Assembly: GCA_910578245.1 (NCBI GenBank)
Contig: CAJTPC010000001.1
Location: 91,603-155,602, forward strand
Origin: an uncultured Christensenella sp.
GTDB taxonomy: Bacteria > Bacillota > Clostridia > Christensenellales > UBA3700
Reading direction: 5' to 3'
Length of the DNA: 64,000 nt
Part shown: positions 12,512 through 48,626 of the stretch, piece by piece
Layout of the letters: every line of letters starts with the position of its first letter
Numbering within the stretch: the first letter of the stretch is position 1
Notes under the pieces: generated by a model
The model's input: only the letters and a program-made list of their open reading frames with translations
Database searches by the model: none
Told to the model about the DNA's origin: nothing
Made by a program: the position numbers and the translations under genes

Positions 12512-12543
12512 TTATTTTAGCTTTAGTAAATTAAATCTTTCCT

Positions 12544-13326: not shown

Positions 13327-13353
13327 TAGTTAAGAAGTCGCGTCTTAGTGAGA

Positions 13354-13393: not shown

Positions 13394-13696
13394 CGCCAGA
13401 TCTATGTGACTTTTTTTCATAGTTGTGACATAGGGATACCGAATTTGTGACGCTTGCACAAGACGCTACTAACTTGCTCGCTATTCCGTTGCTATCGCTC
13501 CTTACAAATCCCTACCTCTAGCGCCACCTTAGCACACGCAAAAGAAACTCCAAAGTGCGTGTTATTTATATTTCAAGCACTTTGAGTATCAAAATCCTTT
13601 TTGTTCATTCAACTATCACCTGCAACAACACTTTTCCACTGCTCCAAAAAATCTATCGCCATTGTACAATAAGGATTTTCCTATATGTTATAATTT

Positions 13697-16697: not shown

Positions 16698-17021
16698 TTT
16701 CTCTTTCCTTATATTTTGCGAAATATATTCACATATTAATATTTTGTAACTCTACAAGTATAAATCATATATTTGTCACTAAATTACTTTTTGGTTATGT
16801 AACCAAAGACAATATATTATTAATATTATTTTATCATTAATATAATTAAAAGTCAAAAATATAGGAACCAATAAATATCTGTTTTTAAAAAGTTATCTAT
16901 TAAAAACTAAAACTATGCATTTTTTACTTCCATACTGTGTAAATATTTAGACATAAAATTCAAGTCCCGACTTCGGCTATGCCTTAAAAAAATCCTTTTT
17001 GTTCATCACGCACAATATTAG

Positions 17022-17049
17022 AAAGGCTCACGCAAGTGAGCCTTTTTTT
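17022..17049. terminator. Rho-independent terminator, probably the original tRNA-Leu(CAA) flank
   Basis: AAAGGCTCAC, loop GCAA, GTGAGCCTTT, then TTTT. Confidence 0.65.
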
Positions 17050-34600: not shown

Positions 34601-37600
34601 CGTATCCGTTATGCGCCTTATTTACAGTCAATATAATAGGATTAAGCGCCAGTTCTTTATAATTCGCCGAAGAAGAAAGCGTGATATATAATTTGTATTC
34701 GCCTACGTCAAGCGCTTTGAGTTTGGAATAAAAAGAGTCCAAAGCAATCAGATTGTTGTTGACTTCTCTTCCCAAAACCCAAGACAAAATAGCCATACGG
34801 TCTTCTTCATCGCTACCGCTGATAGCGCGAGTAACGACATATTGAATATTCATATTCCCTTCTTCGTTGACAGGCGCGCCCATGATGATGTCATCAAGCA
34901 TTAATTGCGAATAATCCCAAGAGTTGTTTTTGATTGACGGCGTAGTCTTAAAACTGTTGTCTGCCATATTGACGCGGAAAAACAAATCAACCGACATTCC
35001 TCTATAATACTCATCGGATCCCACCGTAATTTTGACAAAGTAACTGCCGGTGTTTGTCGGACAATCGTTCAAAAGCGAGCCAATGACATATTGACCGGTG
35101 TCATCATCTAGCATAGCAACGTAATAATCAATGCTGATTTTGCTATCGTCAACTTCATGGATAAGACTAATACTGTCTTTATCAAAAGCGTGCTCCGTCT
35201 TGTCGTAAGTCCAATCGTTCATATCGGGAGCCTCGCCTTTCCAAGCATTTTGACCTAGATATACCCAGAATGCTCTAGAACCGTATTGAGCGGAATAGTT
35301 GTCACTGCCTATAGTCGTCCACCATACGGTATACTGACTTCCTATCTCCGTACTGGAAAGTTGAGAAATCTTTTCTAATAGTTCGTCATACGTCAATGAT
35401 TGACCGTAACTAATAATATCGTCAGACGTCTGAGTATCGCTCAATCCGTCTACGTATTTACCGCCTTGAGAAATACGGTAACCTACCTTTTTACTGTCAA
35501 AGCGAGCTGTATATTGAGATATTAAGCCCTCTGTACTTGTACCTATAGTATAAGCTCCGACCGCGAACGTATCGCTGAGCGTATTCGCCGCTTTGATGAC
35601 CATAATCTTACGCTGGTCGTCAATTGCGAGATAGTTTATACCGCCTCTATCGTTGCGTTGAGCCTCGTCACCGTGTACTTTAAGCATATAAGAGCCCACG
35701 CCAAGCATACCTAAAAGTTCTTCGTAGGTATATGCCGAACCTGACGCAGCTACCTTAAAATCAGTAATGCCTTCAAGTCTTACGCCCTCAATTTCCACAA
35801 CGTTTGTTGTGTCGTCATAATAAACAGAATATTTAAGTTGAGTTTCATACTTGGCTTCGCCTATATGGAGATGATGTCCAAGTTCAAATTCCGAATACGC
35901 CCAGTCCGTTGCAATGATCGTATCTGACCATACGTTATTGGCAGACGCAATGGTAAACGGAACTGCTCCTTTAACAAAGGAATCTACCGCATTGTTAAGA
36001 CCTGTATAGTTATTATGATCATAGACTGTAGCAACCAAATAGTACTGACCGGCAGGAAGCGATGCAAGTTTTTTGGCTACGTCTATAGGCAAAATGAAAT
36101 GCCCTCCGTCTTTTGGATCAACTCCGTTTGTCAAGAAATCTCCGTTGATATCTCTTTCAAATTGGAAGTGGAAGTCGTCGCCGAAATATACCACGTTGTA
36201 CATATCGTCGCCGGTTGCGTCTTCATTGATAGAATAGATACGGAAATCGAATCTTCCTGAACCTGACTTGCTCTCCGTAGAAGTAGAATAGTAGGTCGGC
36301 ACTGCATGTATCTCAATAGGACTTCCCAAACTCCAATCGTAATTTTCATACTGATTCCAACTCCAAGACGTAATACTCGGCGACTTATACCATGTGTTGA
36401 CTGCCTTAGAAATTGTTACGGTAAGAGTTTGTTCAAACTCATTCCAATTGCCGTCCTTATCCGCCGGACAATATGCGTGAAGCGTATATACGCCTGCCGG
36501 CGCAATGCCGAACTTGTCAATATCCGAAACGGTTTCTCTATCATCGTTGTCTCCGCTTCTTACCGGCACAAGCGTAAAAGTAAAATCTTCTTTTTCATTA
36601 CCGAATTGAGTTTCCCAAACGATATTGTCCAACGTAATCTCGCTATTCCAAGACCATCCCGCCATATACAGCGGTACTGTAGTCTTGTTGTTGGCGGCAA
36701 CTATATTGTACGGTATTTCAATGATATTGCCTGTCTCCGCAGTTGCGCCTGTCTGCCAACGGTAAAGTTGGAAATCTCTGTCTGCTATTGTAAGAATAGC
36801 CTTCTTCTCACCGTTGTTCACGTTGTCTTGAGCAGACGGATAAGATACAGTATAGTACGATTGCTCAAAAGCTAATTCGCCGTTGAGATAACTCACCGTC
36901 GGATAGATATCGTATCCTGTGTAAGTAATATCGTTTACCGTCGGCGTAGTCAGCGTCCTATAGACGACTACGTAGAAGAAACACTGTCTGCGCGCGTCAT
37001 CGTTTTCATTGACGAGCGATTTGCGATTCTTGCACGTAAGCTGATAGTATACTGTATATACGTCGGGCGTATTCATAGGATAATTGACTTGAAGTTCAGA
37101 TAGATTCAAATACGAATTATTCCACATACGGTTGAGGTTGTACGTAATTGAAAAATGTCTGTCAAAAAGAGCGTCATACCCCTTCTCTCTCCATATTCCC
37201 ATACGTTGGGTATTCCCCACCGTTTCATCATTTAAGCCCAACATATCTCGAAGTTTATCCGTAGAATCCAACTTGCTTAGATCAAACAAAACTTTGTTTT
37301 TATTATAAGCGTTTGACACGTCAGTCATATCGTATTCAAAGGTCTTACCCTTTAGTTGATTTATTGCGCTGTTCTCTTCCGTTGCAAACTCTTTTTCATA
37401 TACGGTAAAAGAAAAACTTTGTTGGAAAGTATCGAATTTCGTATTATCATCGTTCTTAAAATCAACCGAATAAATAATTCTATAATTTCCTACGGGCAAC
37501 GAACTGTTTATATACTGTGCGTATTTGTCAATTGTGATAGGATCTCCATTCTCATCTGTAGAAAGTATCAAAATACCGCTGCCGCCGACGATGTATTGAG

Positions 37601-38543
37601 AAGTCAATTCCAGACTAAACGTTATATGAACGTCGGTTCCCAGCGCTACTGCCGGCGCGCTTGGCACGTCAACCGTACCGAATTCCCAAGAAGACGCCAT
37701 ATGATAAGACGGAGCGTCATTATTTCCTTCGTTACCTTGGGTCGTGAGCCAGTTGTTAAGTTTGACGATATACCAAGTTTTGTTGATTGTTGCTATAGAC
37801 TGATCAGAGTTAGAATATCCGTAAAACTGACGCGATGAATCGTTCGTCACAGCAAATCTATAATTGTTTTTTGCTTTTTCAGTCAACTCAACAGTAAATT
37901 GATCTGTATATTGTCCCGATTCACTCCTTGCAGTGCCGGGGAAAGAACACGTGAATATGCCGGTATTACTATCGTGCGCGTCAAGGATTACATCGGTAAC
38001 AAGCGTAAGCCTGAACTTCATTTCTTCGCCTTCTGCGCGAACGAAACTGTTCCAAAGTCCGTCTCTTTGCTCTATCAACTCGCCTAACGTATCATCGGTT
38101 TGTTTATCCGTATACCAAGAATTCTTGTATTTATAAAGCGACGTTCCTTGCTCCCCTGCGATTTCCTTGCCGGGACGGAGATTGTTGAGAGTTAAGCCGT
38201 CTGTTACGCCCAAACGGAAAATACTTGAATCACCCAAATCTATTTCGGTTTTGTTTACCGTAACGGTCATTGTAGGTATATCGCCGACATCCCATTCGCC
38301 AAAGTCTTCGTTGGGTTGGATTTGTATAGTATACGTGCCTGCCTCTTGTATAATCGAGCCTATAGAACTATAACTTTTCTCGATGCCGTTGCTGTCTACG
38401 TAACGCGTTACTTTTACGTCATAGTCGCCTTTTATTGCCAAAGGAATTCCCGTAATTTCCGTTTCGTCCGCTTGTAGCGACCTGTCCTTATACTCTCTGG
38501 TCTTATTCTCAAGAGCGACGGAAATAATTTTTTTAGCGTACAT
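31653..38543 (-). CDS. Giant tandem-repeat protein (2,296 aa) with a C-terminal TM anchor
   Basis: A single uninterrupted 6.9-kb ORF. At least 13 repeats of ~100-110 aa each carry N-x-W...P-x-I-x-x-W-x-(W/Y)-G, for example NTWYKSPSITSWSWNQ and DNLWLQKPSIDSWAWGS. C-terminal IALATLASIFTIVVISAVV followed by RRYRK. Confidence 0.75.
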   Translation of the reverse strand: MYAKKIISVALENKTREYKDRSLQADETEITGIPLAIKGDYDVKVTRYVDSNGIEKSYSSIGSIIQEAGTYTIQIQPNEDFGEWDVGDIPTMTVTVNKTEIDLGDSSIFRLGVTDGLTLNNLRPGKEIAGEQGTSLYKYKNSWYTDKQTDDTLGELIEQRDGLWNSFVRAEGEEMKFRLTLVTDVILDAHDSNTGIFTCSFPGTARSESGQYTDQFTVELTEKAKNNYRFAVTNDSSRQFYGYSNSDQSIATINKTWYIVKLNNWLTTQGNEGNNDAPSYHMASSWEFGTVDVPSAPAVALGTDVHITFSLELTSQYIVGGSGILILSTDENGDPITIDKYAQYINSSLPVGNYRIIYSVDFKNDDNTKFDTFQQSFSFTVYEKEFATEENSAINQLKGKTFEYDMTDVSNAYNKNKVLFDLSKLDSTDKLRDMLGLNDETVGNTQRMGIWREKGYDALFDRHFSITYNLNRMWNNSYLNLSELQVNYPMNTPDVYTVYYQLTCKNRKSLVNENDDARRQCFFYVVVYRTLTTPTVNDITYTGYDIYPTVSYLNGELAFEQSYYTVSYPSAQDNVNNGEKKAILTIADRDFQLYRWQTGATAETGNIIEIPYNIVAANNKTTVPLYMAGWSWNSEITLDNIVWETQFGNEKEDFTFTLVPVRSGDNDDRETVSDIDKFGIAPAGVYTLHAYCPADKDGNWNEFEQTLTVTISKAVNTWYKSPSITSWSWNQYENYDWSLGSPIEIHAVPTYYSTSTESKSGSGRFDFRIYSINEDATGDDMYNVVYFGDDFHFQFERDINGDFLTNGVDPKDGGHFILPIDVAKKLASLPAGQYYLVATVYDHNNYTGLNNAVDSFVKGAVPFTIASANNVWSDTIIATDWAYSEFELGHHLHIGEAKYETQLKYSVYYDDTTNVVEIEGVRLEGITDFKVAASGSAYTYEELLGMLGVGSYMLKVHGDEAQRNDRGGINYLAIDDQRKIMVIKAANTLSDTFAVGAYTIGTSTEGLISQYTARFDSKKVGYRISQGGKYVDGLSDTQTSDDIISYGQSLTYDELLEKISQLSSTEIGSQYTVWWTTIGSDNYSAQYGSRAFWVYLGQNAWKGEAPDMNDWTYDKTEHAFDKDSISLIHEVDDSKISIDYYVAMLDDDTGQYVIGSLLNDCPTNTGSYFVKITVGSDEYYRGMSVDLFFRVNMADNSFKTTPSIKNNSWDYSQLMLDDIIMGAPVNEEGNMNIQYVVTRAISGSDEEDRMAILSWVLGREVNNNLIALDSFYSKLKALDVGEYKLYITLSSSANYKELALNPIILTVNKAHNGYEDGKSPAIVNNVTQWEWNGYDATLWREVATKFGEVTIFIDDNAVASLSVSNNLSRLDVGEHNIRFFVEGTSNYEGLDETRKFSIIKNKNGWKDGDKDNTAFINDWTWGEYNNDISGGAPVWKEPAPKYGTSQATIYRGKNGVGGELIRSNIALYSLDIVMNSLDAGFYYIIWTVVGDTNYESITREYIDFEVKVNANKWDDDKPATMRENDKKEISGIEFGWTWGEYGKDAGVDYFTVPVAKYGLVVAKITKYDSTWNNPTLIVDGVSNHISIANTLDRLDVGRYRIEWSATDPNSTGNFEEIDYPKAIEFIINRGVNSWTGDKPYIDGWQWGAFDSSLWKAPGLASGSPNATVIKLNSDGTDGEHIIEKISAEYLSAQLAELEVGNYRLVWTADENDNYEIEGENKDDLTFQVSVNVNGWIIKPAITATDSQWQWKTFTLAYWQIPSAQYHHNDISATVYKLDDGCDFEYDDLNNKYILDESKCSAIDGITLATLDAINNLSIGKYLIKVSVPQDEQGRFLGIESVLPFTVIPNENEFTSKDCYIKGYAYSDFRGYWSAPTAQFGDITASVYITTDSKRELITTVNTNGLNDVLTALHAGSYEVVWAITPDVDGNYLGGKTTTSTFVVTKADNLWLQKPSIDSWAWGSFDAKTAGLKAIPLNTKDGLSVHFKIVDSAYGEISEFSGLVDNQGYFTDIAKVSDVLKNLKPATYHLLAYYPELEDYNKLDKNNESEFVIKHAENKWVMTPDIVDWTYGSPTNAPTGSAIFGDKIKYTYYKAVLDANGEPIFKNGKYQVVENSAFDGWGKDEIADAGVYIVQADVEGNDYYAPLSAQFVLRVSNSKYNYWKTQPTIQSWVFGSDKCLPEGESAYGNVTWTYYKATWSEALNKWIPTGEAISTDGENPPEEVGQYILVASVGASEGYNALIANVFFEIYERATSAMSSDLLVYIDIALATLASIFTIVVISAVVRRYRKNDSVNE

Positions 38544-38587
38544 GTTTATTACGTCGATTCCCTTGCTCGATGCATTGCGAAGCGATG

Positions 38588-40507
38588 CTATACTACTGCC
38601 GTTTTATCTGCCGTACTTATCAGCGTTTCTGTATATTTAGTATTGAAATTCGTATTGGTAAACCAACTCGTCTTTGCATAGCCTGTATACTTTGTCAATG
38701 ATGGGAAAGTTTGAGTTTCGTGTTCCCACACATCGCTGTCTTTACGTACGTAATCAAAAGGATTGTTATAAAGAGCGCTGTTATAACTAGACAAACTGCC
38801 TGAATACAAGCGTTGCATTTTCGCTTCTTCAACGGCGTTATACTGATATTTATTTGCGTCGGTATCCCATTCCGCTACGTTAGGTACGATGTCTATCAAA
38901 TAGGTATAGTATTTCCCCGTGCTCACAGAAAAATCCTTAGCGACTTTTTGAAATCCGCTTGTCGCATTAGAATTAATATAATAGTTGTTGTAATCGGTAT
39001 AATTGCGATAAATAAACAAAGGCGGAACTGTAGACGAATAACTAAATCCTCCGGTACTTGTTATCGCCGGATTATTTGACGGAAGATAGAATATAAGACC
39101 CGTGGTTCTTCCCAAAAAAGCAAGCCCCTGACTTCCGATTTTTTCTACGTTGCCCAAATTAAACGTCCACATTGGCGCATTATGGAACGCCTTGTTGCCA
39201 ATTACGGAAACAGCGTCGTCAGGTATTGTCATGTGCCATACCCAACGATAAAAGAATGCTTGCTGACCTATGTCGTATCTCAACTTCGAGCTGCCTTGAG
39301 TACCTGCGATTACACGGCTTCTTTCAGTATCGACATTGGAAATTGCGCCGTTAATAGCTACGTTTTCTCCAAGTTGAGCTTGCGTAGTAAATGCGCTGAA
39401 ATCATTTTGAACTTGATTGCCGGAGCAATCAAGATAGTCGAATTGCCCCGCTCTGCTTTCTGAATTTTTAGCCAGATCTACTTGCGTAGGCAAAATTACG
39501 TTATAATTGTCCGAAGCGTTGACGGTATCGCCCCCGCTCTCCGTACCGTGATAACCCACCAAATACCATTTGCCTATTTTATATGATTCGTCAGACGTAA
39601 GTCCGGTAGCCAGCGAAGATGTTCTTGAAATATTTTTACAAAATACGAATCCGTCTACGGTGCGAATCAACCAAGAACGTCCTGCGCCTTTAACGTATAC
39701 ATTCATATATGCACCGCTTATTGATGCCAAACTTTGAACTTTAGATACAAAAGTACCGTTTGCATTGGAAGGAAGTTCGACTTCCACAATTTTTCCACAT
39801 CCGTTAAAAGCGGAAGTATTCAGTCCGCTTCCGTCTGCGCCCAGTCCTGATGGCAAAGAAATGTGACACAATGCGTTTCCGACAATGGCTTGCTCTCCTA
39901 TCGAAGTAACGCTGTCGGGAAGAGCGACGTCATACAATCTATCGCAAGTCTTAAAAGTGTAGGCGGGAATTGAAGTGAGTTTTGTAGCCTTGCTTAAATC
40001 CACTCTCTCCAACCAACCGCCACCCAAAGCAGATTTTGCGGAAGTAGCTCCGATAAACGACTGAAGATTGCTTCCCTCATCTGCCGTAATAGAAAGCCAC
40101 TTAACAGAGGGAATACCTTTTGTGTTATCATTGGAACCGGCGTCTATTGTCTTAACAGAGTTTGGCAAAAGCAAATGCACGTATTTATCAATAACATCGG
40201 TAGAATTCATACCCGTCCAAAGTCCGTCGGTTATTGACATTACGCTTGAACTGGTATAAATAAATTGTTCTTCAAGTATACCAAGTTTATTCGCGTACGC
40301 TTTAGCTTTGTCTTCAGTTTCAGCTATTATGTAAGGTTTTTCCCTGTAAAACTTATTGACTGCCGTGTTTTGTGTAACTACGCCGTTTTCGTCGTTAAAT
40401 TTATTGCTTAAAGGCAAAGTCAACAATGCGATCACTGTTAAGAACGCGATAAGAACTGTGGCTAAAACTACCCAAATGATTTTTCCAGATTTATTCTTCG
40501 TATTCAT
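38588..40507 (-). CDS. BspA-type leucine-rich-repeat surface protein (639 aa)
   Basis: N-terminal signal anchor. Repeated I(P/G)..AF..C..L..V.LP.SVTSIG-type LRR units. Confidence 0.65.
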   Translation of the reverse strand: MNTKNKSGKIIWVVLATVLIAFLTVIALLTLPLSNKFNDENGVVTQNTAVNKFYREKPYIIAETEDKAKAYANKLGILEEQFIYTSSSVMSITDGLWTGMNSTDVIDKYVHLLLPNSVKTIDAGSNDNTKGIPSVKWLSITADEGSNLQSFIGATSAKSALGGGWLERVDLSKATKLTSIPAYTFKTCDRLYDVALPDSVTSIGEQAIVGNALCHISLPSGLGADGSGLNTSAFNGCGKIVEVELPSNANGTFVSKVQSLASISGAYMNVYVKGAGRSWLIRTVDGFVFCKNISRTSSLATGLTSDESYKIGKWYLVGYHGTESGGDTVNASDNYNVILPTQVDLAKNSESRAGQFDYLDCSGNQVQNDFSAFTTQAQLGENVAINGAISNVDTERSRVIAGTQGSSKLRYDIGQQAFFYRWVWHMTIPDDAVSVIGNKAFHNAPMWTFNLGNVEKIGSQGLAFLGRTTGLIFYLPSNNPAITSTGGFSYSSTVPPLFIYRNYTDYNNYYINSNATSGFQKVAKDFSVSTGKYYTYLIDIVPNVAEWDTDANKYQYNAVEEAKMQRLYSGSLSSYNSALYNNPFDYVRKDSDVWEHETQTFPSLTKYTGYAKTSWFTNTNFNTKYTETLISTADKTAVV

Positions 40508-41039
40508 GAATTCCTCTCCATCACAAAAACCATATTTTATATGTTTTAACTTTACTCAATTCCCCTTATTATAGTTTTATTAGATCCCCTTATTTTTTTA
40601 TTTGCCGTCACACTTTAGCGACATGCGCAAATTATGCTATGCCTAAAATGATAAACTAATCGCCTCGCATATTACTACTAAGCAAAATGTCTTGTCAACT
40701 GTTTTTTTGTATTTTTTGGCTTATTTCCATCATTTTCCTCTATTTTTCGCCATTATTCTACAAAATCTTACACTAATTAAACAACTTTATCACAATATTA
40801 CATATTGCAAATATTCCATTATTGTTAATATAACTTCATTTACTATAACAATTTAAGTTAAAAAATTTGTCAAAACGCGACATCTAATTGCCTATTTCAA
40901 CAAATTTTATATTTCTTTCTCTTTACATTATAGTGATATAATAATAACACGATAGTTTCAAATAGTCAACACAATAGTTTTAATAAAACATAAAAATAGT
41001 GCATAAACTAGAACTATAGTTTAGCGCGTGGTGATAAAT

Positions 41040-41333
41040 ATGGATAAATTTGAAGTTGCAAGGCGCATAAAAAGTTTGCGTGAAGCAAAAAACTTAACTC
41101 AAAATGCTTTGGCTAATAATGCAGGGGTATCTCCAACTTATATTTATCAATTAGAAAAAGGTGAAAAGAGTCCTACGGTAGAATACCTTGACCACATTTG
41201 TTGGGGATTAGGAATATCGATTGAAGATTTTTTCAGTACAAAAGAAAAGTCAAAGGAACAAATTCCCGATAAATACTCAAATCTTACAGCAGAACAAAAA
41301 AAACTTCTAAACGAATTTTTGAATAGTTTGTAG
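41040..41333 (+). CDS. XRE-family HTH regulator
   Basis: IKSLREAKNLTQNALANNAGVSPTYIYQLEKGEKSPTVEYL. I moved the start to the Met at 41040. Confidence 0.8.
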   Translation: MDKFEVARRIKSLREAKNLTQNALANNAGVSPTYIYQLEKGEKSPTVEYLDHICWGLGISIEDFFSTKEKSKEQIPDKYSNLTAEQKKLLNEFLNSL

Positions 41334-41540
41334 TTTCAAGTCCATATCCACGATAGAAATTATATTACACTCCTTATATAACTTTCTTGACAAAATCTAT
41401 CGTGAAAACGTTGTTATGTTCCACTCAATTAATTCTAAATTTCAAAAAATCAACTCGAAATGCCAATAAATGCCCTATTTTTGCTACATTAGGATGAAAA
41501 AAGGTCTAATCGTCAAAAGACTTTTAGACCATTACACTTG
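41331..41540. repeat. Direct repeat copy A (~210 bp), left boundary of the tRNA-Leu(CAG) island
   Basis: Aligns with 47165-47374. The first ~115 bp are near-identical, the middle is diverged, and the end is conserved. It contains a minus-strand terminator GGTCTAA...TTAGACC followed by TTTTTT. Confidence 0.8.
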
Positions 41541-41598
41541 TGTGTATAAGACGAAATTTATCGTTTTGATAGGTGTGTATGACAACTTTTTATTTCGT

Positions 41599-42129
41599 CT
41601 ATCGCAATACATCGATAGGTTTGCGTTTAGACACGACGTAACTTCCGGTTAGGCTTATTATAAGCGTAACCGCAAGCGATACTGCAAATATTAATGCCAC
41701 CTGCCGTATTCCAAATACCGAAATAGGTATCATAATACCTAAATCGCTCTTTACCATAGAGTTGATGACAATACCCGCTATTCCGCTGATAAGAGAAGAT
41801 ATTGGGAATATCACAGCAAAGAGTATCATCCCTTCAAATAAACATATATGGAAAATATCTCTCGACGTTGCTCCGATCGCTCTCAATATGCCTATCTCCC
41901 TTTCTCTTGCCATAATTGAGTTTACCAAATAGTTGCCAAACATAAACGAGGCAAAAATGCCAATGCCAAGAGACACATAATAAAATATCTTTTTCATTAT
42001 ATCCATTGTGCTTTTAATAAATCCTGCTTGTTCCAAGACGCCGTTATTTGTCCGTATTTTTTCATTATTATCAAGGTATTGTGATATAACGTTCTTTATC
42101 TTAGATTTATTTTCAGGAGAAATCTTCAC
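41599..42129 (-). pseudogene. FtsX-family ABC permease, C-terminal fragment only
   Basis: The FtsX-domain motif REIGILRAIGATSRDI and three TM helices are present. The N-terminal TM and extracytoplasmic domain are missing. An in-frame TAA lies a few codons upstream of the GTG start, and there is no partner ATPase. Confidence 0.6.
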
Positions 42130-42322
42130 TAAGCCTGCGGTTGCCTCAATGTGTTTTGCTTCTAGCGTTGCTTTATCATTTTGGTATGCTACCGAATTTA
42201 TAAGTACCCTACTGCTCTCAGTGATAAAGTACGACCAAACATTGTCAAGTACTGAAATGTCTAGATATTAATCTAATATTTGAAAAATTACTCCATAATT
42301 CCTCAAGTATTATAATTAACCT

Positions 42323-44545
42323 CTATCTTCCTTCTTTTCCAGTATCACCTGGATCGCCAGTAGGTCCTGGTTTTCCTACTCCTGAATAACTCTTTCCACC
42401 TTGACCACCATTGCCGCCATCACCACCTGGGCCACCGGTGCCATTACTTCCATTCACTAACTGCGTGAAACTGCCTGTTATTGTTGCCATACCAGATTTA
42501 GCATCATAGCCTTGTCCTTTTGTACCACCTCTGCCGCCGGTACCACCTTTACCGCCTTTGCCACCAGTGCCCCAAGCATTATTTTTTCCTGGTCCACCTG
42601 TGCCGCCTTTGCCGCCTTTACCGCCATTGCCTCCATCGCCACCACGTGCGTATACTTGTGCCCATGACGCTATTTTGATTGCTCTCGCTACATTAAAAGC
42701 ATATCTGCCTGAACCACCTGTGCCACCTTGATGCCCTGTGTTACCTTGCGCTGCAGTTTCGGTCATAGCATCCCCTTGTTTGCCTTGTGCTCCGTTGCCT
42801 CCATTACCGCCATAGACTTCTAGTCTACTGACATTTATATATACATAGGACGCCCATACAGCGCTACCGCCATGTCTTCCAGCTATTGCCACTATATCTC
42901 CAGGTCCTACTGGGTTATTTACGTTTCCGTCGATCCCATTGCCACCATATATTTTCAGTGTGGAGGTACCTTCTTGTTGTATATTTATACTATGGCATAC
43001 TATACCGCTACAATAGTGCTCTGGGCTTCCCGTATACATTATATTGTACGTTAGTCTTTTCCCACCTCTTATTATTGAGTCACCTTTACATACTAAATTT
43101 AATCGGCAATCTCCACTCATTTCCATTCCACTTGTACCATTGATTCTAACTGCTATTGCTATATTCGAAGCCTTTGAGTAAATAGCGTTGTAGTCGTCTT
43201 GAGCTTGGAATTTGAAATCCCATAGTGTTATTGCTATTGGAGTCTCTCTTTCTTTCTCTATCTCAAATCTCAAATTCTTAAATTCTTTACTTGTTGTTCC
43301 CCTCAATATTACTTCTTCAACATCCGTACTAAATGTATATACACTATCCACGTTTGTTGGCAAATCTCTAAAGTCCATTATGGACAAAACCTTTGTTATT
43401 GTCCTTGTTTGATTTGTGCCAACTGATTCCGTCTCTGGCCATCTCGCTTTTAGAACTAAATTCCCTGTTGTCCCTTTCTCTATTCTCGTTATAACATTGT
43501 TATTATTTGTAAGGTTTATCCATCCTCTATTATATAAACCATTACTTAATCCATATTGCCTACTGCTTGGCAAGTCAAATGCGTCTTCTATTGTATAATT
43601 CCTATTTGATACGCCACTGCCGCCGTCTGCATTAAATGTAATACTGTATACTGTTGGCGTCCACTTTGCATATAATGTTATACTTGGAGCAGTTATTCCT
43701 TCTATATCTTGATCCCACTTGATTCCATTTCCGTAGTTTTTACCGCTTAAATCCGATTCTGCAAACCATCCTGCGAAGTCATAACCATCCTTCGTTGGCT
43801 TTGGCATACCTGACAATATACTTCCATATACCACTCCTGACATGTTACTACATGCGCTACCACCATTACTGTTAAATACTATTTCACTATTCTTCTCTTC
43901 CCATTGTGCCAATATTTCCAAAGTTCCATTATTTTCATAGTTATCAGTAATGTCTGGCATAGTGACAAATTCGAATTTTTTATTACTTTCATTTTTGTAT
44001 GTCCAATATGTAAAATTGTAACCTACTTTTAAAGGAATATCTACCGAAATATCCATCCCTACGTTTGCTGTTATTTCTTTATATATATTGCTATCATCAT
44101 AATAATATATAACTGTATGCAATTCGTCTGTATAGCGTGGGGACAAAACAATAATCCCATCACTATTTTTAAATGCTTCTAGATTAGGCACGTACGAACT
44201 TGCCCAGCCAAAAATTTGATCTTGACAATAAAAGTCCTCAAACTTTTTACCGCTTATATAACCGCCTTTCTCTATAAATAACTTCTTTATTTCAAAAAAA
44301 TTAACCTCTTTTCCTTGTGTTAATTTTACCGAACTGTCAGTGCTTATTCCATCATCGCCAATATACAAATAATTATTGCCCATATCTATCTTTACTGTAT
44401 AAGCAACAATCTCCTCGCATGCGAAGACGATTTCATCCCCAATAATAACATTTATTATTGAAGCAATAAAAACCAAACTGACTACAATTAATATCAAAAA
44501 TAATCTTTTTTGTCTTATACCAAATGTTTTCATAAATACCTCCAT
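42323..44545 (-). CDS. Secreted/anchored protein with Listeria-Bacteroides (InlB B-type) repeats and a glycine-rich C-terminal third
   Basis: N-terminal TM/signal. Repeats include GYDFAGWF...ITLYAKWTP. The C-terminus has YGGNGGNGAQGKQGD, GGDGGNGGKGGKGGTGGPGK and GGPGGDGGNGGQGGK. Confidence 0.65.
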   Translation of the reverse strand: MEVFMKTFGIRQKRLFLILIVVSLVFIASIINVIIGDEIVFACEEIVAYTVKIDMGNNYLYIGDDGISTDSSVKLTQGKEVNFFEIKKLFIEKGGYISGKKFEDFYCQDQIFGWASSYVPNLEAFKNSDGIIVLSPRYTDELHTVIYYYDDSNIYKEITANVGMDISVDIPLKVGYNFTYWTYKNESNKKFEFVTMPDITDNYENNGTLEILAQWEEKNSEIVFNSNGGSACSNMSGVVYGSILSGMPKPTKDGYDFAGWFAESDLSGKNYGNGIKWDQDIEGITAPSITLYAKWTPTVYSITFNADGGSGVSNRNYTIEDAFDLPSSRQYGLSNGLYNRGWINLTNNNNVITRIEKGTTGNLVLKARWPETESVGTNQTRTITKVLSIMDFRDLPTNVDSVYTFSTDVEEVILRGTTSKEFKNLRFEIEKERETPIAITLWDFKFQAQDDYNAIYSKASNIAIAVRINGTSGMEMSGDCRLNLVCKGDSIIRGGKRLTYNIMYTGSPEHYCSGIVCHSINIQQEGTSTLKIYGGNGIDGNVNNPVGPGDIVAIAGRHGGSAVWASYVYINVSRLEVYGGNGGNGAQGKQGDAMTETAAQGNTGHQGGTGGSGRYAFNVARAIKIASWAQVYARGGDGGNGGKGGKGGTGGPGKNNAWGTGGKGGKGGTGGRGGTKGQGYDAKSGMATITGSFTQLVNGSNGTGGPGGDGGNGGQGGKSYSGVGKPGPTGDPGDTGKEGR

Positions 44546-44695
44546 TCTATTAATAAAACAATTTAACTTCTTAATTCGTCCCCCAATTTAATATTTTTAT
44601 AAGAAAATCATTCTATTAGGCACTACATGCTCTCTACTCCTCTACTTAAATAACAATTCTATCAACGATTTTGTCCCATCTTCTCACAAAATTTC

Positions 44696-44727
44696 ATAAA
44701 AAAAGACAACTAGTCTAAATAGTTGTC
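44696..44727 (-). terminator. Rho-independent terminator after the anti-sigma-like gene
   Basis: Minus strand AGACAACTA, 7-nt loop, TAGTTGTCT, followed by a T7 run. Confidence 0.7.
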
Positions 44728-44770
44728 TCTCAAATAGATTTATGAACTTACTATAATATCACTTCACCTC

Positions 44771-45448
44771 TTAAGAATAAATCATGTCTAATGCTTCAGT
44801 TACTGGCATTTCACTAAAACTATCAAAATTTATAAAATAATTATATTCGCCAATCGTAAATGTCATTGCATATGAGTAATAAAAATTATCCTCCTCATAA
44901 CTTATCAAATATCTAACTGGTATATCTCTCCATTTTACACTATCCGTTATAATGTCGAATTTTTGAAGTTGAGTTAAAATGTATGATTTATTTACCACAT
45001 TTAACTTAATATCGTCAAAATACTCATCGAATATAATCATCTCAATATACAATCCAAAATTTTGATTGTTTTCTTTATATGTCATTATGGACGTATATGA
45101 CTCAATATATTCTATTGACGGCAATAGACAATTAAAATTATATTTATTATTAATCTCATCAATATCGCTTATTTCTACTAATTCGATTTGAGAATTATCA
45201 CAATAAAAATATTGTGACGCATCTTGCGGTGCCCCTTCTTTATTCAACAATATTGGAAGAGCAACTGACAAGGAAACTATTACCGCTAAGAGCATAGTAA
45301 ACGCAATCCATACATATTTGGGAATGCTTCTATGCACCTTTATCTCGTACTCACTTCTATTTCTCAATTTTTGCAGGTCTGTATCTTTCCCTCTCTTTGT
45401 AGAGTCAACATACTTTCCCATTAATTCGTTAAATCTATCGTCTTTCAT
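44771..45448 (-). CDS. Single-pass membrane protein, anti-sigma-factor candidate
   Basis: ~45-aa cytoplasmic N-terminus, a TM (YVWIAFTMLLAVIVSLSVALPILL) and an extracytoplasmic domain. It lies two genes downstream of a sigma factor. Assigned by context only. Confidence 0.4.
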   Translation of the reverse strand: MKDDRFNELMGKYVDSTKRGKDTDLQKLRNRSEYEIKVHRSIPKYVWIAFTMLLAVIVSLSVALPILLNKEGAPQDASQYFYCDNSQIELVEISDIDEINNKYNFNCLLPSIEYIESYTSIMTYKENNQNFGLYIEMIIFDEYFDDIKLNVVNKSYILTQLQKFDIITDSVKWRDIPVRYLISYEEDNFYYSYAMTFTIGEYNYFINFDSFSEMPVTEALDMIYS

Positions 45449-45449
45449 T

Positions 45450-46319
45450 CTAATTTATTGCAACAGCTTCTGCCGCTATCATATTACCTCCGCTATTTAG
45501 TAAATAATATCCGTCTTCGTTATTTATTCCCGAAGAAACATGAATATATGTATTTGATAGTATTAAAGTATTATCCGCGTTATAATAATTTACCTTTTGG
45601 TATCCGTATGCTACAACTATATGATTACCCCCATAAAAATTTTTGCTAATTAAAACATGGGTTCCCAAATCATTAAATGACACAAAATTATAACCACTCA
45701 GGAAAAGTGCTACTGGTCTTCCACTGCGCAGCTCTGCTTCAAAATTAGCGAAATTAAAATTGCCATTTGACATAACTGATATATAAGATATATTCCTATC
45801 CCGCGATTGCACATACAATCTTAAGCCGTTTTGAAAATCCTCTTGTGTAGTTCCGTCACTCTTTGTGTTAGTTTTCATATACGTATAAAGCGTATTTATT
45901 ACTGCTTGCTTTTTATCTTTATTCAAAGCCATAAGATAGTATGTATAATTATTGCCACGCTGTATCCCAATCGTACAATCTGGGATCAAATTGTCATAAT
46001 ACCTATCATAAAAGCCTATAATATTCGCTCCTGCCACGTTAGCGCAAGTATTTTTCAATGATCCATTCGTATTATAATAATCTGGGAACGAACTGTTGAT
46101 TTTATATTTAGTAGTATCTTTCCAGCTGTAATAAATAGTTTCCACTTCGGCATTTTGTGTAGCCGCCTCTGAATAAAGTATATCATCAGAATAGGTTGTT
46201 GCTACTTCTGCCTCGCATTTATTGTTAGCACTGAATGTTGTTATGCAAAAAGACGAAACAACGATAATTAGGACCATTATAATTACATTTATTTTTTTAT
46301 TCATTATTTTACCCTCCAT
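45450..46319 (-). CDS. Secreted papain/C39-like cysteine peptidase candidate
   Basis: Signal peptide. Candidate nucleophile in KNTCANVAGANIIGFY and candidate His in GGNHIVVAYGY. The fold assignment is inference. Confidence 0.4.
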   Translation of the reverse strand: MEGKIMNKKINVIIMVLIIVVSSFCITTFSANNKCEAEVATTYSDDILYSEAATQNAEVETIYYSWKDTTKYKINSSFPDYYNTNGSLKNTCANVAGANIIGFYDRYYDNLIPDCTIGIQRGNNYTYYLMALNKDKKQAVINTLYTYMKTNTKSDGTTQEDFQNGLRLYVQSRDRNISYISVMSNGNFNFANFEAELRSGRPVALFLSGYNFVSFNDLGTHVLISKNFYGGNHIVVAYGYQKVNYYNADNTLILSNTYIHVSSGINNEDGYYLLNSGGNMIAAEAVAIN

Positions 46320-46331
46320 AAATATAGCAAT

Positions 46332-46904
46332 CTAAATGTCAATTTTGTCCCAACCTTTTATATTCAATTCGTTTTTCAAAATTTCTATTGCGTCATTTTT
46401 CAATCTCCCAACCTGTGTTTTGGAAATACCTAAATCCTTAGCAATCTGTCTAATCGTTTTGTCTTCAAAATATGTTTCCTGAATTATTATCCGTTGCATA
46501 TCTGTTAATTTCATCATTGCAACATTTATATCATTTCTTAATCCTACGACTTCCATCGAATCGTCAGTCTGATAATTATTGACTTTTAAATAATCAACGT
46601 ATGCTATATTATTCCCAACTTGACGATTTAACTTTTTTAATCTGTTTAGCACTTGCCTAGTCATTACTCTACATAAGTAACCATAAGCATTTTTATATAT
46701 TAAAAAACCATTTGCATATTTCTTTATATCATACCAAAAATCTTGAACTAAATCATCTGCCTCACTTTCATTTTTGAGATATTTTAAGGCAATGTATCTG
46801 ATAGTTGGAGACATAAGTTCATAGAGATGTGATATGCTATCATCGTCTCCTTGTCTGACTTTTATCAATAATACATTTAAATATTCTCTTGGCTCTTTAT
46901 CCAT
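46332..46904 (-). CDS. Sigma-70 family (ECF-like) RNA polymerase sigma factor
   Basis: Region 2-like ADDLVQDFWYDI. Region 4 HTH LTDMQRIIIQETYFEDKTIRQIAKDLGISKTQVGRL. Confidence 0.8.
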   Translation of the reverse strand: MDKEPREYLNVLLIKVRQGDDDSISHLYELMSPTIRYIALKYLKNESEADDLVQDFWYDIKKYANGFLIYKNAYGYLCRVMTRQVLNRLKKLNRQVGNNIAYVDYLKVNNYQTDDSMEVVGLRNDINVAMMKLTDMQRIIIQETYFEDKTIRQIAKDLGISKTQVGRLKNDAIEILKNELNIKGWDKIDI

Positions 46905-47164
46905 GCGTAATTCTCTTTATTTAACATTGTATATCGAAATTTATTATACTATACACTTAACAAACTTTCAAGAACAATCGTAATCTTTCTAAAAATGATT
47001 CTTGACATAAATCAGAGTGTAAAATCATAATTCATTACTATTCGTTTTATCAGTGCAATATTTTACACTTGCAATATCTATTTCTTGTGTATTATAAATA
47101 ACTGCTCTTCTCACTTATTTGCAATTTGATTATTACTTCACTTTATCAATTTATGAAGCCATAA

Positions 47165-47374
47165 TAGTTTCAAGTCCATATGCACGATAGAAATTATATT
47201 ACACTCCTTACGTAACTTTCTTGACAAAATCTATCGTGAAAACGTTGTTATGTACCACTCAATTAATTCTAAATATCAATAAATAAACTCAAAATGCCAA
47301 TAATTGTCATAAATTTTCTATAATAGAATGAAAAAAGGTCTAAATGTCAGAAGACTTTTAGACCAATACACTTG
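47165..47374. repeat. Direct repeat copy B (~210 bp), right boundary of the island
   Basis: See copy A. It is followed immediately by a 21-nt exact copy of the tRNA-Leu(CAG) 3' end. Confidence 0.8.
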
Positions 47375-47393
47375 GTGCGGATAACAAGATTTG
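47373..47393 (-). repeat. Duplicated 3' terminal 21 nt of tRNA-Leu(CAG) (att-like remnant)
   Basis: TGGTGCGGATAACAAGATTTG is identical to 47501-47521. A degenerate third copy (TGTGTATAAGACGAAATTT) follows repeat A at 41541-41559. Confidence 0.75.
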
Positions 47394-47500
47394 TAAGGAG
47401 CAACGCGACGGTATAGCGAGCGAATATGCGAGCGTCACAGTTTGGACTGTCGCCGTTATCCCACAAAAACGGCAGACTCAATACCTTGAGCCTGCCTTAA

Positions 47501-47587
47501 TGGTGCGGATAACAAGATTTGAACTTGCACGGCCTTTCGGCCATAAGAACCTGAATCTTACGCGTCTGCCAATTCCGCCATATCCGC
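47501..47587 (-). tRNA. tRNA-Leu (anticodon CAG), class II, CCA encoded
   Basis: The reverse complement is GCGGATATGGCGGAATTGGCAGACGCGTAAGATTCAGGTTCTTATGGCCGAAAGGCCGTGCAAGTTCAAATCTTGTTATCCGCACCA. Anticodon loop TTCAGGT. A hairpin plus T-run follows at 47465-47496 on the minus strand. Confidence 0.9.
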
Positions 47588-47973
47588 TTAATATGGAAAA
47601 ATATTTTGTAGTTACTATATTATCAAAATATGATTTCTTAGTCAATGAATATCAAAATGTTTTTAGCAATTATTTATAAACTCTTTGGATTGTAGAAAAT
47701 AACTGCAATATTTGTCATAAATGCAAATATCGTAAATAAAATATATTGTAGATTCGTCATAAAATAGCAACATTATATGGATATTTTAGCATTAGATACA
47801 ACAGTTGATTAATATTCAAATGCGATTATTATGCTAAATAGAAGTATTAATGATATTTCTCATATGGATATTTTAGGAGTATATTCCTGCCTATCCCCTA
47901 TTTTGACGTTTTTACGAATCTACTGCATTTATTGGCAATATTTAGAAGCATAAATGCTAAAAAGGAGAATTTA

Positions 47974-48258
47974 ATGAGCCAAATAACGCAACCGACAACA
48001 ACTAAGCCGCAAAAATCCTTGAATATCGTATTTGACAGCATAATAGAAATAAATGGGCTAACAGAAATGATAGAAAGCGATGAAAAGCAGGTTATATGCA
48101 ATTTGGGCGATAAATCGCTTATAATTACCGGAGAAAAACTTAAAATAGTCAATCTAGACACGTCTAGAGGCATTTGCTCTTTATCCGGCAGTATTACAGC
48201 GCTAAAATACTCAAAAGGCAAGCAAAAGCTATCATTTTTCAAGAAAATATTCAAATGA
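47974..48258 (+). CDS. yabP: Sporulation protein YabP
   Basis: GGAGA RBS, then ATG at 47974. GDKSLIITGEKLKIVNLDTSRGICSLSGSITALKY matches the YabP beta-rich repeat pattern as I recall it. 4-nt overlap with the next gene. Confidence 0.7.
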   Translation: MSQITQPTTTKPQKSLNIVFDSIIEINGLTEMIESDEKQVICNLGDKSLIITGEKLKIVNLDTSRGICSLSGSITALKYSKGKQKLSFFKKIFK

Positions 48259-48626
48259 TACTCTCCGATACGCTTAATCAGCCTTTAGCATTGGCTATAT
48301 ACACGTCTTTTGGCATAATATTTGGCTTGATATACTCGGTCAATGCTTTTGCTTGCGCATTTTTTGTTAAAAAAGCAATATATAGGCATATATCGCAATG
48401 CTTATACGTTTTACTTTACGGCGCAGTCTTCTTTGTAATTACGTTCACGCAGTTCAATTACGATTTGAAGATTTATCACTTTATAATTTCAGCATTCTTT
48501 ACTGCCTTGACGTCGTTAGCATTATATTTGCTTACAAGAAAGCATCAACGGTCAATAAATGCTAAGTGCGACGCTATTAAAATCAAAATAGCTCAGAGCA
48601 AGATAGTTAAAAAATTTAAGAAGTAA
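48255..48626 (+). CDS. yabQ: Spore cortex protein YabQ-like membrane protein
   Basis: ATGA overlap with yabP. 123 aa with 4 TM segments. Called by position and topology. Confidence 0.55.
   Translation: MILSDTLNQPLALAIYTSFGIIFGLIYSVNAFACAFFVKKAIYRHISQCLYVLLYGAVFFVITFTQFNYDLKIYHFIISAFFTALTSLALYLLTRKHQRSINAKCDAIKIKIAQSKIVKKFKK

What the first reader, a model, noticed from the sequence alone, without database searches (positions are those of the whole stretch)
41331..47587. 5.8-kb island beside tRNA-Leu(CAG), bounded by ~210-bp direct repeats with three tRNA 3'-end copies
Reading the minus strand, the order is:
1. The intact tRNA (47587-47501).
2. A 107-bp spacer with a terminator hairpin.
3. 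An exact 21-nt copy of the tRNA 3' end (47393-47373).
4. Repeat B (47374-47165).
5. The cargo.
6. A degenerate tRNA-end copy (about 41559-41541).
7. Repeat A (41540-41331).

Each repeat contains its own terminator (GGTCTAA...TTAGACC followed by T6). The cargo is a sigma-70/ECF-like factor, a secreted Cys-peptidase-like protein, an anti-sigma-like membrane protein, a 740-aa glycine-rich surface protein and a truncated FtsX permease.

No recombinase is present. The layout resembles tandem site-specific integrations followed by decay. It parallels the organisation at the other tRNA-Leu gene in this window.
Basis: seen in the sequence. Interest (0 to 1): 0.6.

Follow-up and report, generated by a model that had tools for sequence, protein, structure and literature searches.

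The report
Layered gene cassettes behind tRNA-Leu
The stretch behind this tRNA-Leu gene is a real, recombinase-less accessory island in a hypervariable hot-spot, but its 21-base tRNA-end copy belongs to a separate small "tRNA-linked repeat" found behind many tRNA genes, and the 227-base repeats are the matching head pieces of two stacked cassettes, not classical attachment sites.

Summary
The tRNA-Leu(CAG), an exact 21-nt copy of its 3' end, and two direct repeats 5,834 bp apart (227 nt, 88% identical) are all present. The third, "degenerate" tRNA-end copy is no better than chance.

Relatives show three points.

1. The gap between tRNA-Leu(CAG) and a conserved BspA-like/giant surface-protein pair is hypervariable. 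It measures 0.9 to 7.0 kb, holds R-M, Mrr or surface-protein genes in other species, and never contains a recombinase.
2. The 128 bp that carry the 21-nt copy are one unit of a tRNA-linked repeat family. The family sits behind at least 5 tRNAs in this genome and occurs in 16 of 118 sampled genera of the order. The unit is missing at this tRNA in at least three relatives aligned base by base.
3. The 227-bp repeats are the "heads" (terminator T plus regulatory region P) of two stacked segments. The 5.8-kb segment ends in a conserved "tail" (L). The same head/tail layout bounds other cassettes in G022, G013 and G001.

The cargo is a mosaic:
- a mobile sigma / papain-like / anti-sigma module;
- a unique Gly-rich surface protein;
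- a MacB-type permease fragment.

Most likely these segments accumulated one after another at the tRNA 3' boundary, inserted by a recombinase encoded elsewhere. That step is inferred, not shown. Interest is moderate.

The parts
47501..47587 (-). tRNA-Leu(CAG), the anchor of the hot-spot
   Evidence: ARAGORN; Rfam RF00005, 53.8 bits; 91-98% identical in 20+ relatives
47373..47500 (-). One 128-bp tRNA-linked repeat unit. It comprises the term1 hairpin (47496-47471), an inverted copy of the tRNA end, GTGGGATAAC (47464-47455), the conserved core (47454-47394), and the exact 21-nt tRNA 3' copy (47393-47373).
   Evidence: Absent from the otherwise colinear site in G020, G013 and G022, and present in G018 (alignment A4). 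The family was found by nhmmer and a covariance model. As single-stranded DNA the unit folds with z = -3.0.
47148..47374 (-). Repeat B, the head of the 5.8-kb segment. It comprises terminator T (hairpin 47364-47337 plus T6) and regulatory region P, which holds TTGACA and the inverted repeat CACGATAGA..TCTATCGTG (47218-47242 and nearby).
   Evidence: Family D3/D11; alignments. T(B) is 100% identical over 43 nt to the T element of G001:C74. G001:C24 carries the 21-mer plus T plus P at 86% over 288 nt.
44637..46996 (-). Mobile three-gene module with its own promoter: sigma-70/ECF factor (46332-46904), secreted papain-like candidate (45450-46319), and a single-pass membrane protein that may be an anti-sigma factor (44771-45448).
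   Evidence: Pfam and NCBIfam. The module is colinear in G011 (82% nt), G003, G005 and G009, each time in a different context. Promoter TTGAAA-17-TATAAT at 46971-46943. AlphaFold2 model and fold search.
42323..44545 (-). 740-aa surface-protein candidate with a signal/TM segment, Listeria-Bacteroides repeats and a Gly-rich GGxGG tail.
   Evidence: Pfam PF09479, 5.5e-18. No orthologue in 40 relatives, only domain-level hits.
41599..42234 (-). Pseudogene fragment: the C-terminal 211 aa of a 963-aa ABC-ATPase/FtsX (MacB-like) protein.
   Evidence: tblastn with the G009 gene gives 92% identity over residues 753-963 and no N-terminal part anywhere in the genome; Pfam FtsX.
41541..41598 (-). Tail element L, with the box ACGATAAATTT and the end ..TATACACAC.
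   Evidence: Conserved (85-92%) at the distal end of other cassettes in G022, G001:C74, G011:C17 and G013. Its likeness to the tRNA end is not above chance. It is not significantly structured (z = -1.6).
41314..41540 (-). Repeat A, the head (T hairpin 41530-41503 plus P) of the older, distal segment.
   Evidence: Family D3. T(A) differs by 1 nt from the T element that directly follows tRNA-Leu in G020 and G022.
41028..41333 (+). XRE/Cro-type HTH repressor, convergent on repeat A. It may bind the CGATAGA boxes.
   Evidence: Pfam HTH_3, 2.6e-13. The binding role is inferred only.
40508..47500 (.). The whole hypervariable gap between tRNA-Leu(CAG) and the conserved BspA-like (38588-40507) and 2296-aa (31653-38543) gene pair.
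   Evidence: The flanks are conserved in G009, G003, G018 and G019, with gaps of 0.9, 1.7, 2.7 and 6.3 kb holding unrelated content.

Best explanation
The DNA behind tRNA-Leu(CAG) is an accretion hot-spot where recombinase-less segments are inserted one after another at the 3' boundary of the tRNA gene, or at an identical 21-nt copy of it. Reading away from the tRNA, three layers are visible.

1. A 128-bp tRNA-linked repeat unit. It rebuilds a terminator for the tRNA and ends in a copy of the tRNA's last 21 nt.
2. A 5.8-kb segment with a 'head' (terminator T plus regulatory region P, which is repeat B), a mosaic cargo, and a conserved 'tail' L. The cargo is a sigma / papain-like / anti-sigma module, a Gly-rich surface protein and a permease fragment.
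3. An older segment that starts with its own T-P head (repeat A) and carries the XRE gene.

On this reading the 227-bp direct repeats exist because two related segments, each beginning with T-P, lie in tandem.

Shown:
- the anatomy;
- the empty and alternative states in relatives;
- the recurrence of the head/tail layout.

Inferred:
- insertion is site-specific;
- it is carried out by a recombinase encoded elsewhere. The genome has three tyrosine-type and three serine-type candidates.
For: - Hypervariable gap between conserved flanks in five species, with no recombinase in any of them.
- Precise presence/absence of the 128-bp unit.
- The same unit family lies behind Leu(CAA), Ser(GGA), Thr(CGT) and Val(GAC) in this genome. 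It occurs in 23 of 201 genomes and 16 of 118 genera of the order.
- In 17 of 25 further units that have a tRNA upstream, the last 21 nt match that tRNA 21/21.
- The head/tail layout recurs. G022: tRNA|T-P2-ORF-L|T-P2'-ORF-L'. G013: tRNA|T-lipoprotein gene-L|term1-unit-21mer|T-Mrr-L'|term1'. G018: tRNA|term1-unit-21mer|T-Mrr.
- L is always followed by whatever normally follows the tRNA's CCA, either T or term1.
- T(B) is identical to a cassette-borne T in G001:C74, whereas T(A) resembles the native T of G020 and G022. This is what insertion at the tRNA/T boundary predicts.
- The sigma module is more similar to G011 (82% nt) than the core genes are (~69%).
- In G005 the sigma module lies inside the tRNA-Leu(CAA) island.
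- The FtsX fragment is 92% identical at protein level to G009, against 63-77% for neighbouring orthologues.
- Candidate recombinases encoded elsewhere exist. A T-bearing island in G011 starts with a serine recombinase.
Against: - No recombinase has been linked to T, L or the 21-mer.
- The L tail's similarity to the tRNA end is at chance level, so a shared crossover core is unproven.
- Both T and P are duplicated. Plain homologous (Campbell-type) recombination explains that equally well.
- The 12% divergence between repeats A and B, and the mosaicism of the G001:C24 copy, show later gene conversion that blurs the junctions.
- GC content of the cargo does not stand out from the yabPQ flank.
Confidence: 0.55

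Rival explanations
1. There is no site-specific step. A circular or linear piece of foreign DNA carrying a T-P stretch recombined with the resident T-P by ordinary RecA-dependent homologous recombination (a Campbell-type single crossover, or a double crossover after uptake). That duplicated the 227-bp homology around the cargo. The tRNA is only a bystander, because T happens to be its terminator.
For: - The duplicated stretch (T plus P, 227 bp) is much longer than a typical att core and contains no tRNA sequence.
- In G022 the duplicated stretch is again terminator plus promoter, about 130 nt.
- The T, L and P copies are mosaic between genomes.
- No recombinase lies in any of the islets.
Against: - T(B) and T(A) look wholly donor-like and wholly native respectively. 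That places the exchange at the very edge of T, next to the CCA.
- L joins equally well to term1, which is unrelated to T, in G013 at the same point relative to the tRNA end. Homology through T-P cannot explain this.
- Insertions use both the true tRNA end (G013) and the 21-nt copy (this genome).
Confidence: 0.27
2. The repeats arose by a local tandem duplication of the region downstream of the tRNA, followed by deletion and gene replacement. Nothing was inserted from outside.
For: - In G009 the full-length FtsX-type gene lies 13.7 kb downstream in the same orientation, beyond the BspA/giant pair. A large duplication followed by deletions could therefore have brought its tail next to a second T.
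Against: - In G009 the gene is not followed by L or T.
- The closest relative with this synteny (G018) has no such gene downstream.
- The cargo genes have no second copy in the genome.
- The cargo shows higher identity to distant species than the core genes do.
- The same L-T junction occurs with unrelated cargo in other genera (G240).
Confidence: 0.08
3. This is a classical tRNA-integrating genomic island or prophage remnant whose tyrosine integrase gene was deleted. The 21-nt copy would be its attR.
For: - The 21-nt copy starts in the T-loop, the sublocation used by many tRNA-targeting integrases.
- The genome has a tyrosine integrase beside tRNA-Glu(CTC).
Against: - The 21-nt copy lies between the tRNA and the island, only 107 bp from the tRNA.
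- It belongs to a unit found on its own behind many tRNAs and in tandem arrays.
- No tRNA-end copy is detectable at the far end of the island.
- None of the five species has an integrase in this gap.
Confidence: 0.07

Closest known systems
tRNA-linked repeats of E. coli (the tyrT-rtT 178-bp repeats; RtT RNA, Rfam RF00391)
   Same: Short gene-less units sit directly behind a tRNA gene. Each ends in a copy of the last ~19-21 nt of that tRNA, and they are sometimes iterated in tandem (G021, 3 units; G022, at least 3 units). The function and origin of the E. coli repeats are still unclear (own knowledge; the rtT/tyrT context is mentioned in bioRxiv 10.1101/2024.07.17.603846).
   Different: - No sequence or structure match to RF00391 or any other Rfam family.
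- This family has its own ~60-nt conserved core.
- It is found behind many different tRNAs.
- It often carries an inverted copy of the tRNA end at its 5' side.
Genomic islands and integrative elements that target the 3' part (T-loop sublocation) of tRNA genes with tyrosine integrases
   Same: Located immediately 3' of a tRNA gene. The tRNA gene stays intact. The duplicated tRNA segment starts in the T-loop. The locus is variable between relatives.
   Different: - No integrase in the island or in any relative's islet.
- The duplicated tRNA segment bounds a 128-bp unit, not the island.
- The island's own flanking repeats contain no tRNA sequence.
CIMEs (cis-mobilisable elements) and tandem accretion of ICE/IME-type elements in streptococci
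   Same: Recombinase-less segments bounded by att-like ends are stacked in tandem at one chromosomal site. They would depend on a recombinase supplied by another element.
   Different: - No cognate autonomous element or recombinase has been identified here.
- The ends (T-P head, L tail) are unrelated to known att sites.
- Mobilisation is only inferred.
Integron gene-cassette arrays
   Same: Arrays of small cassettes of unrelated function, each ending in a conserved element (L), next to a fixed insertion point.
   Different: - No IntI-type integrase is adjacent.
- L is not a significant imperfect palindrome (z = -1.2 to -1.9).
- The cassettes carry their own promoters and terminators.

Membership tests
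tRNA-targeting integrative genomic island (tyrosine-integrase type) | Lies directly 3' of an intact tRNA gene | tested here: met
   The tRNA is at 47501-47587 and accessory DNA starts at 47500.
tRNA-targeting integrative genomic island (tyrosine-integrase type) | Encodes its own integrase or recombinase | tested here: not met
   No recombinase domain in any ORF of 40508-47500. The nearest PF00589 and PF00239 hits are on other contigs.
tRNA-targeting integrative genomic island (tyrosine-integrase type) | Distal boundary marked by a direct repeat of the tRNA 3' segment (attR) | tested here: not met
   The only significant copy (47373-47393) is proximal. The candidate at 41541-41559 is at chance level (25% of random 30-mers).
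tRNA-targeting integrative genomic island (tyrosine-integrase type) | Absent from the same site in related genomes (empty or alternative site) | tested here: met
   The flanks are conserved, and the content differs in G009, G003, G018 and G019. The cargo is absent from G020 and G018.
tRNA-linked repeats (E. coli TLR / RtT type) | Gene-less unit directly behind a tRNA gene, ending in a copy of that tRNA's 3' end | tested here: met
   21/21 identity here and in 17 of 25 further units.
tRNA-linked repeats (E. coli TLR / RtT type) | Tandem iteration of the unit | tested here: met
   One unit at this locus. Arrays of 3 units occur in G021 (180/273/273 nt) and in G022 (124-nt period).
tRNA-linked repeats (E. 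coli TLR / RtT type) | Homology to RtT RNA (Rfam RF00391) | tested here: not met
   cmscan of 40500-48500 at E <= 1 finds only the tRNA.
Integron cassette array | Adjacent IntI integrase and attC-type imperfect palindromes at cassette ends | tested here: not met
   No tyrosine recombinase lies near the locus. The L elements fold no better than shuffles.
CIME-like recombinase-less elements in tandem accretion | Bounded by functional att sites recognised by a recombinase of a related autonomous element | not testable with these tools
   The head/tail layout recurs, but no cognate recombinase has been identified. This needs an excision/integration assay.
ECF-type sigma / anti-sigma module | Sigma-70 regions 2 and 4 with a co-transcribed membrane anti-sigma factor | tested here: inconclusive
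   Regions 2 and 4 are present. The 225-aa partner has one TM helix but matches no anti-sigma domain.

The most novel reading that the evidence does not exclude
Two kinds of protein-less DNA may be inserted by the same still-unidentified recombinase, encoded elsewhere, which recognises the last ~21 nt of tRNA genes. One kind is the ~125-nt tRNA-linked units: a conserved core held between an inverted and a direct copy of the tRNA 3' end. The other is the T-head/L-tail gene cassettes. Every inserted unit would add a fresh landing pad, its 21-nt copy, so tRNA trailers would grow into layered cassette arrays. This would be an integron-like gene-capture system anchored on tRNA genes in gut Clostridia.
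Probability: 0.3. Interest if true: 0.75.

Novelty: new variant of a known kind. Interest (0 to 1): 0.45.

Why it matters
tRNA genes are the classic landing sites for mobile DNA, yet integrase-less islets behind them are usually dismissed as 'decayed' elements. Here the decay reading is too simple.

- The same head/tail layout and the same tRNA-linked unit recur across species with different cargo: restriction systems, surface proteins, a sigma module.
- Cassettes are found both at the real tRNA end and at the unit's copy of it.

If a shared recombinase is behind this, it would be a simple, testable gene-capture mechanism in an abundant group of uncultured gut bacteria. It would also give a functional context to the long-unexplained tRNA-linked repeats. 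If not, the locus is an ordinary recombination hot-spot.

Tried and rejected
- Rfam scan of 40500-48500 at E <= 1: only the tRNA was found. No RtT, ribozyme or other family.
- RNAalifold on 19 units: only one 6-bp stem (GUGACG/CGUCGC), with weak covariation. A well-folded conserved RNA is therefore not supported by this alignment.
- The idea that the unit's 5' segment is the tRNA's own 5' acceptor strand was rejected. In G079 the complementarity runs 12 nt into the T-stem, so it is an inverted copy of the 3' end. About half of the units lack it.
- The idea that the 227-bp repeats hold a decayed XRE gene rests on only a 12-nt identity and 'TQNA', and was dropped.
- L as an attC-like hairpin: z = -1.2 to -1.9, not significant.
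- Composition: the cargo's GC content (27-35%, with 49% in the Gly-rich part) is no different from the yabPQ flank.
- PADLOC: no defence-system match for the cargo, apart from generic HTH hits for the XRE gene.
- PDB sequence search, Pfam and NCBIfam for the 289-aa and 225-aa proteins: nothing significant.
- Gly740 orthologues: none in 40 relatives.
- Islands in G005 and G001 bounded by a tRNA and a unit were scanned for integrases: none.
- Two literature searches found no description of this repeat family.

Full report
**1. Observation**

ARAGORN finds two tRNA genes in the window: tRNA-Leu(CAA) at 13240-13326 (+) and tRNA-Leu(CAG) at 47501-47587 (-).

The repeat finder confirms two features:
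- An exact 21-nt copy of the tRNA 3' end at 47373-47393 (family D16).
- A direct repeat of 227 nt at 88% identity, 41314-41540 versus 47148-47374, spacing 5834 (family D3).

The 227-nt sequence occurs only at these two places in the 1.56-Mb genome. The spacer after the tRNA holds a strong intrinsic terminator (47496-47471). Each long repeat starts with the hairpin GGTCTAAA..TTTAGACC followed by T6.

The claimed third, degenerate tRNA-end copy (41541-41559) gives a local alignment score that about 25% of random 30-mers of this genome reach. On its own it is not evidence.

**2. Cargo**

On the minus strand the ORFs are:
- A sigma-70/ECF-type factor (regions 2 and 4; TIGR02937, 1.9e-20).
- A 289-aa secreted protein with no family match.
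- A 225-aa single-pass membrane protein with no match.
- A 740-aa protein with Listeria-Bacteroides repeats and a Gly-rich tail.
- A 176-codon FtsX-domain ORF.

The FtsX piece is the C-terminal 211 residues of a 963-aa MacB-like protein. It is 92% identical to the intact gene of relative G009, and the N-terminal 752 residues are nowhere in this genome.

The 289-aa protein family has an invariant Cys92 and His233. Its AlphaFold2 model (pLDDT 82.5) gives only weak fold matches, enriched in papain-like proteases such as falcipain and calpain (E 0.04-0.3, TM about 0.35). 'Cys-peptidase-like' is therefore plausible but unproven.

No ORF has a recombinase domain, and nothing matches a known defence system.

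**3. The locus is a hot-spot**

The order yabQ-yabP-tRNA-Leu(CAG)-gap-BspA-like gene-giant 2296-aa gene is conserved in G009, G003, G018 and G019. The gap varies:

| Genome | Gap size | Content |
|---|---|---|
| G009 | 0.9 kb | no identified genes |
| G003 | 1.7 kb | a 235-aa gene also present in the G019 gap (not checked against a family library) |
| G018 | 2.7 kb | an Mrr restriction enzyme |
| G019 | 6.3 kb | by N-terminal sequence (not scanned): two cytosine methyltransferase-like genes, a possible endonuclease, a small XRE-like gene |
| this genome | 7.0 kb | the cargo described above |

. I saw no integrase-like ORF in any of these gaps; only the G018 Mrr gene was scanned against Pfam.

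Other points on mobility of the cargo:
- The closest relative for this flank, G020 (98% in the tRNA region, 90% across yabPQ), lacks the sigma module.
- The sigma-peptidase-membrane protein module (44637-46996) is colinear in G011 (82% nt, against about 69% for core genes), G003, G005 and G009. Each time it lies in another context.
- In G005 it sits inside the island behind tRNA-Leu(CAA). The far end of that island is homologous to window 16949-17040.
- The 740-aa protein has no orthologue in 40 relatives.

The cargo is therefore accessory, mosaic and at least partly exchanged between species.

**4. The 21-nt copy belongs to a separate element**

G020, G013 and G022 have tRNA...GCACCA followed directly by AGTGTA-T hairpin. 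This genome and G018 have 128 extra bases at exactly that point (alignment A4).

The extra piece consists of four parts:
- a new terminator (term1);
- a short inverted copy of the tRNA end (GTGGGATAAC);
- a conserved core (GTGACGCTCGC...GCTCGCTAT.CCGTCGC...GCTCCTTAC);
- the 21-mer.

The same core, followed by the 3' end of the local tRNA, lies about 100 nt behind tRNA-Ser(GGA), Thr(CGT) and Val(GAC, truncated) in this genome, and behind Leu(CAA). In the Leu(CAA) case the tRNA-like end is non-cognate.

A covariance model of 19 units finds the family in 23 of 201 sampled genomes of the order, in 16 of 118 genera, with up to 16 copies per genome.

In 20 newly fetched regions, a tRNA gene was called in 15, on the same strand and upstream of the units (Leu, Ser, Pro, Gly, Thr isoacceptors). 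In 17 of 25 units with a tRNA upstream, the last 21 nt match that tRNA 21/21.

Tandem arrays occur: three units behind tRNA-Leu(CAG) in G021, and a 124-nt period in G022.

The segment 5' of the core is complementary to the unit's own 3' end more than to non-cognate ends (mean -11.2 versus -7.95 kcal/mol; 0 of 5000 permutations). This holds in only about half of the units. In G079 the complementarity is a perfect 12-mer that includes the T-stem strand, so it is an inverted copy of the tRNA 3' end.

In G010 the unit behind Leu(TAA) carries the 5' segment typical of the Leu(CAG) unit but the 3' end of Leu(TAA). This suggests the 3' copy is acquired from the target while the rest travels.

No Rfam family matches, and only one 6-bp internal stem is supported.

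My results agree and add three things: the empty-site alignment, the inverted copy, and the taxonomic tally.

Because the unit is flanked by 21-nt direct repeats, its absence in G020 could be precise loss rather than primary absence. The homologous units of G018 and G013 (86% identical) argue that the unit predates these species.

**5. What the 227-bp repeats are**

Each repeat has two parts:
- T, the terminator hairpin.
- P, about 180 nt holding a TTGACA box inside the inverted repeat CACGATAGA...TCTATCGTG.

T directly follows tRNA-Leu(CAG) in at least six species. Beyond T their sequences differ from ours.

The segment between the repeats ends in a 58-nt element, L (41541-41598). L recurs at 85-92% identity at the far end of unrelated cassettes:
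- G022 reads tRNA|T-P2-(HEAT-like ORF)-L|T-P2'-(next ORF)-L'. This gives a ~130-nt terminator-plus-promoter duplication of the same kind as ours.
- The HEAT-like ORF with L|T is also in G001:C74. A pair of T copies at the same ~0.87-kb spacing is seen in another genus, G240; its content was not examined.
- G013 reads tRNA|T-(590-aa Flg_new lipoprotein)-L|term1-unit-21mer|T-(Mrr)-L'|term1'.
- G018 reads tRNA|term1-unit-21mer|T-Mrr.

So L is followed by whatever normally follows the tRNA's CCA, either T or the unrelated term1. New segments are found both at the true tRNA end (G013) and at the unit's 21-nt copy (this genome).

T(B) is 100% identical over 43 nt to the cassette-borne T of G001:C74. 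T(A) differs by one base from the native T of G020 and G022. Insertion at the CCA|T boundary predicts exactly this.

G001:C24 has 23 nt of the tRNA-Leu 3' end plus T plus P (86% over 288 nt) right after the stop codon of an unrelated operon, inside a tRNA-Ser island. Such junction pieces therefore move.

**6. Mechanism**

The most economical reading is accretion. Related recombinase-less segments, each with a T-P head and an L tail, and the small units are inserted successively at the 3' boundary of the tRNA or of its 21-nt copy. The two 227-bp repeats are the heads of two neighbouring segments.

The enzyme is not identified. Candidates:
- Three PF00589 genes in this genome, one of them beside tRNA-Glu(CTC).
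- Three PF00239 genes in this genome.
- A serine recombinase at the start of a T-bearing island in G011.

The main rival is plain homologous recombination through T-P. It explains the length of the duplication but not the L|term1 junctions.

Two points remain against a site-specific reading. L is not a significant hairpin, and its end resembles the tRNA end only at chance level. A crossover core is therefore unproven.

**7. Limits**

G020 stops 95 bp after T.
- The organism is a low-GC spore-former-like Firmicute (YabP/YabQ genes).

**8. Verdict**

The finding is a real, integrase-less accessory segment in a tRNA-proximal hot-spot. That is an ordinary kind of object, but it has two features that are not ordinary: the tRNA-linked unit that supplies the 21-nt copy, and a recurring head/tail cassette layout. 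I rate it moderately interesting, and the island itself as a new variant of a known kind.

Noticed in passing
window 13413-13526 (+): The repeat unit behind tRNA-Leu(CAA) ends in ..CAAATCCCTACCTCTAGCGCCA. That is not the 3' end of the adjacent tRNA (..CAAGTCCCGCCTTCGGCACCA), so this is a non-cognate unit, perhaps carried in with other DNA.
   Followed up: partly
window 16949-17040 (+): A degenerate copy of the tRNA-Leu(CAA) 3' end plus a terminator marks the far end of the other island. It is homologous to the far end of the G005 island (L053 ~10800-10900), which contains the sigma module there.
   Followed up: partly
own genome C34:4571-4878, C52:2379-2686, C17:~220, C22:~20950, C21:~200, C10:~43000: The same ~60-nt core also occurs without any tRNA end, inside larger dispersed repeats. 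In at least one copy (C34) these are flanked by ~39-nt inverted repeats (GAGATnTTTCGACTTCACTACGTTTCGCTCA..ATGACA), so they may be MITE-like elements sharing a module with the tRNA-linked units.
   Followed up: no
window 31653-40507 (-): A BspA-type LRR protein (639 aa) and a 2296-aa repetitive membrane-anchored protein form a conserved pair next to the hot-spot in at least five species (63-86% aa identity).
   Followed up: partly
L038 (G019) 11714-15212 and L056 (G011:C17) 3593-6893: The same type of restriction-modification cassette (a 329-aa protein with two Dcm-type methyltransferases) sits in the tRNA-Leu(CAG) gap of G019. In G011 it sits in a T-flanked array away from that tRNA.
   Followed up: no
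window 41384-41408, 47218-47242, 46999-47023, 41541-41598: Boxes of the form (A)CGATAGATTT / AAATCTATCG recur in P, in L and near the sigma promoter, and likewise in the L elements of G022 and G001. They may be operators of the XRE protein or recombinase arm sites.
   Followed up: partly
L028 / G015:C8:68644-75659: In G015 a diverged sigma module (43% aa) lies about 6 kb from a 1432-aa protein with the same Gly-rich C-terminal domain as the 740-aa protein. This hints that the sigma factor and this surface-protein class work together.
   Followed up: no
L043 (G001:C24) 7300-7370: Two further tRNA T-arm/3'-end-like fragments lie in series next to a tRNA-Ser-type unit. This is another sign of layered insertions behind tRNA genes.
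   Followed up: no
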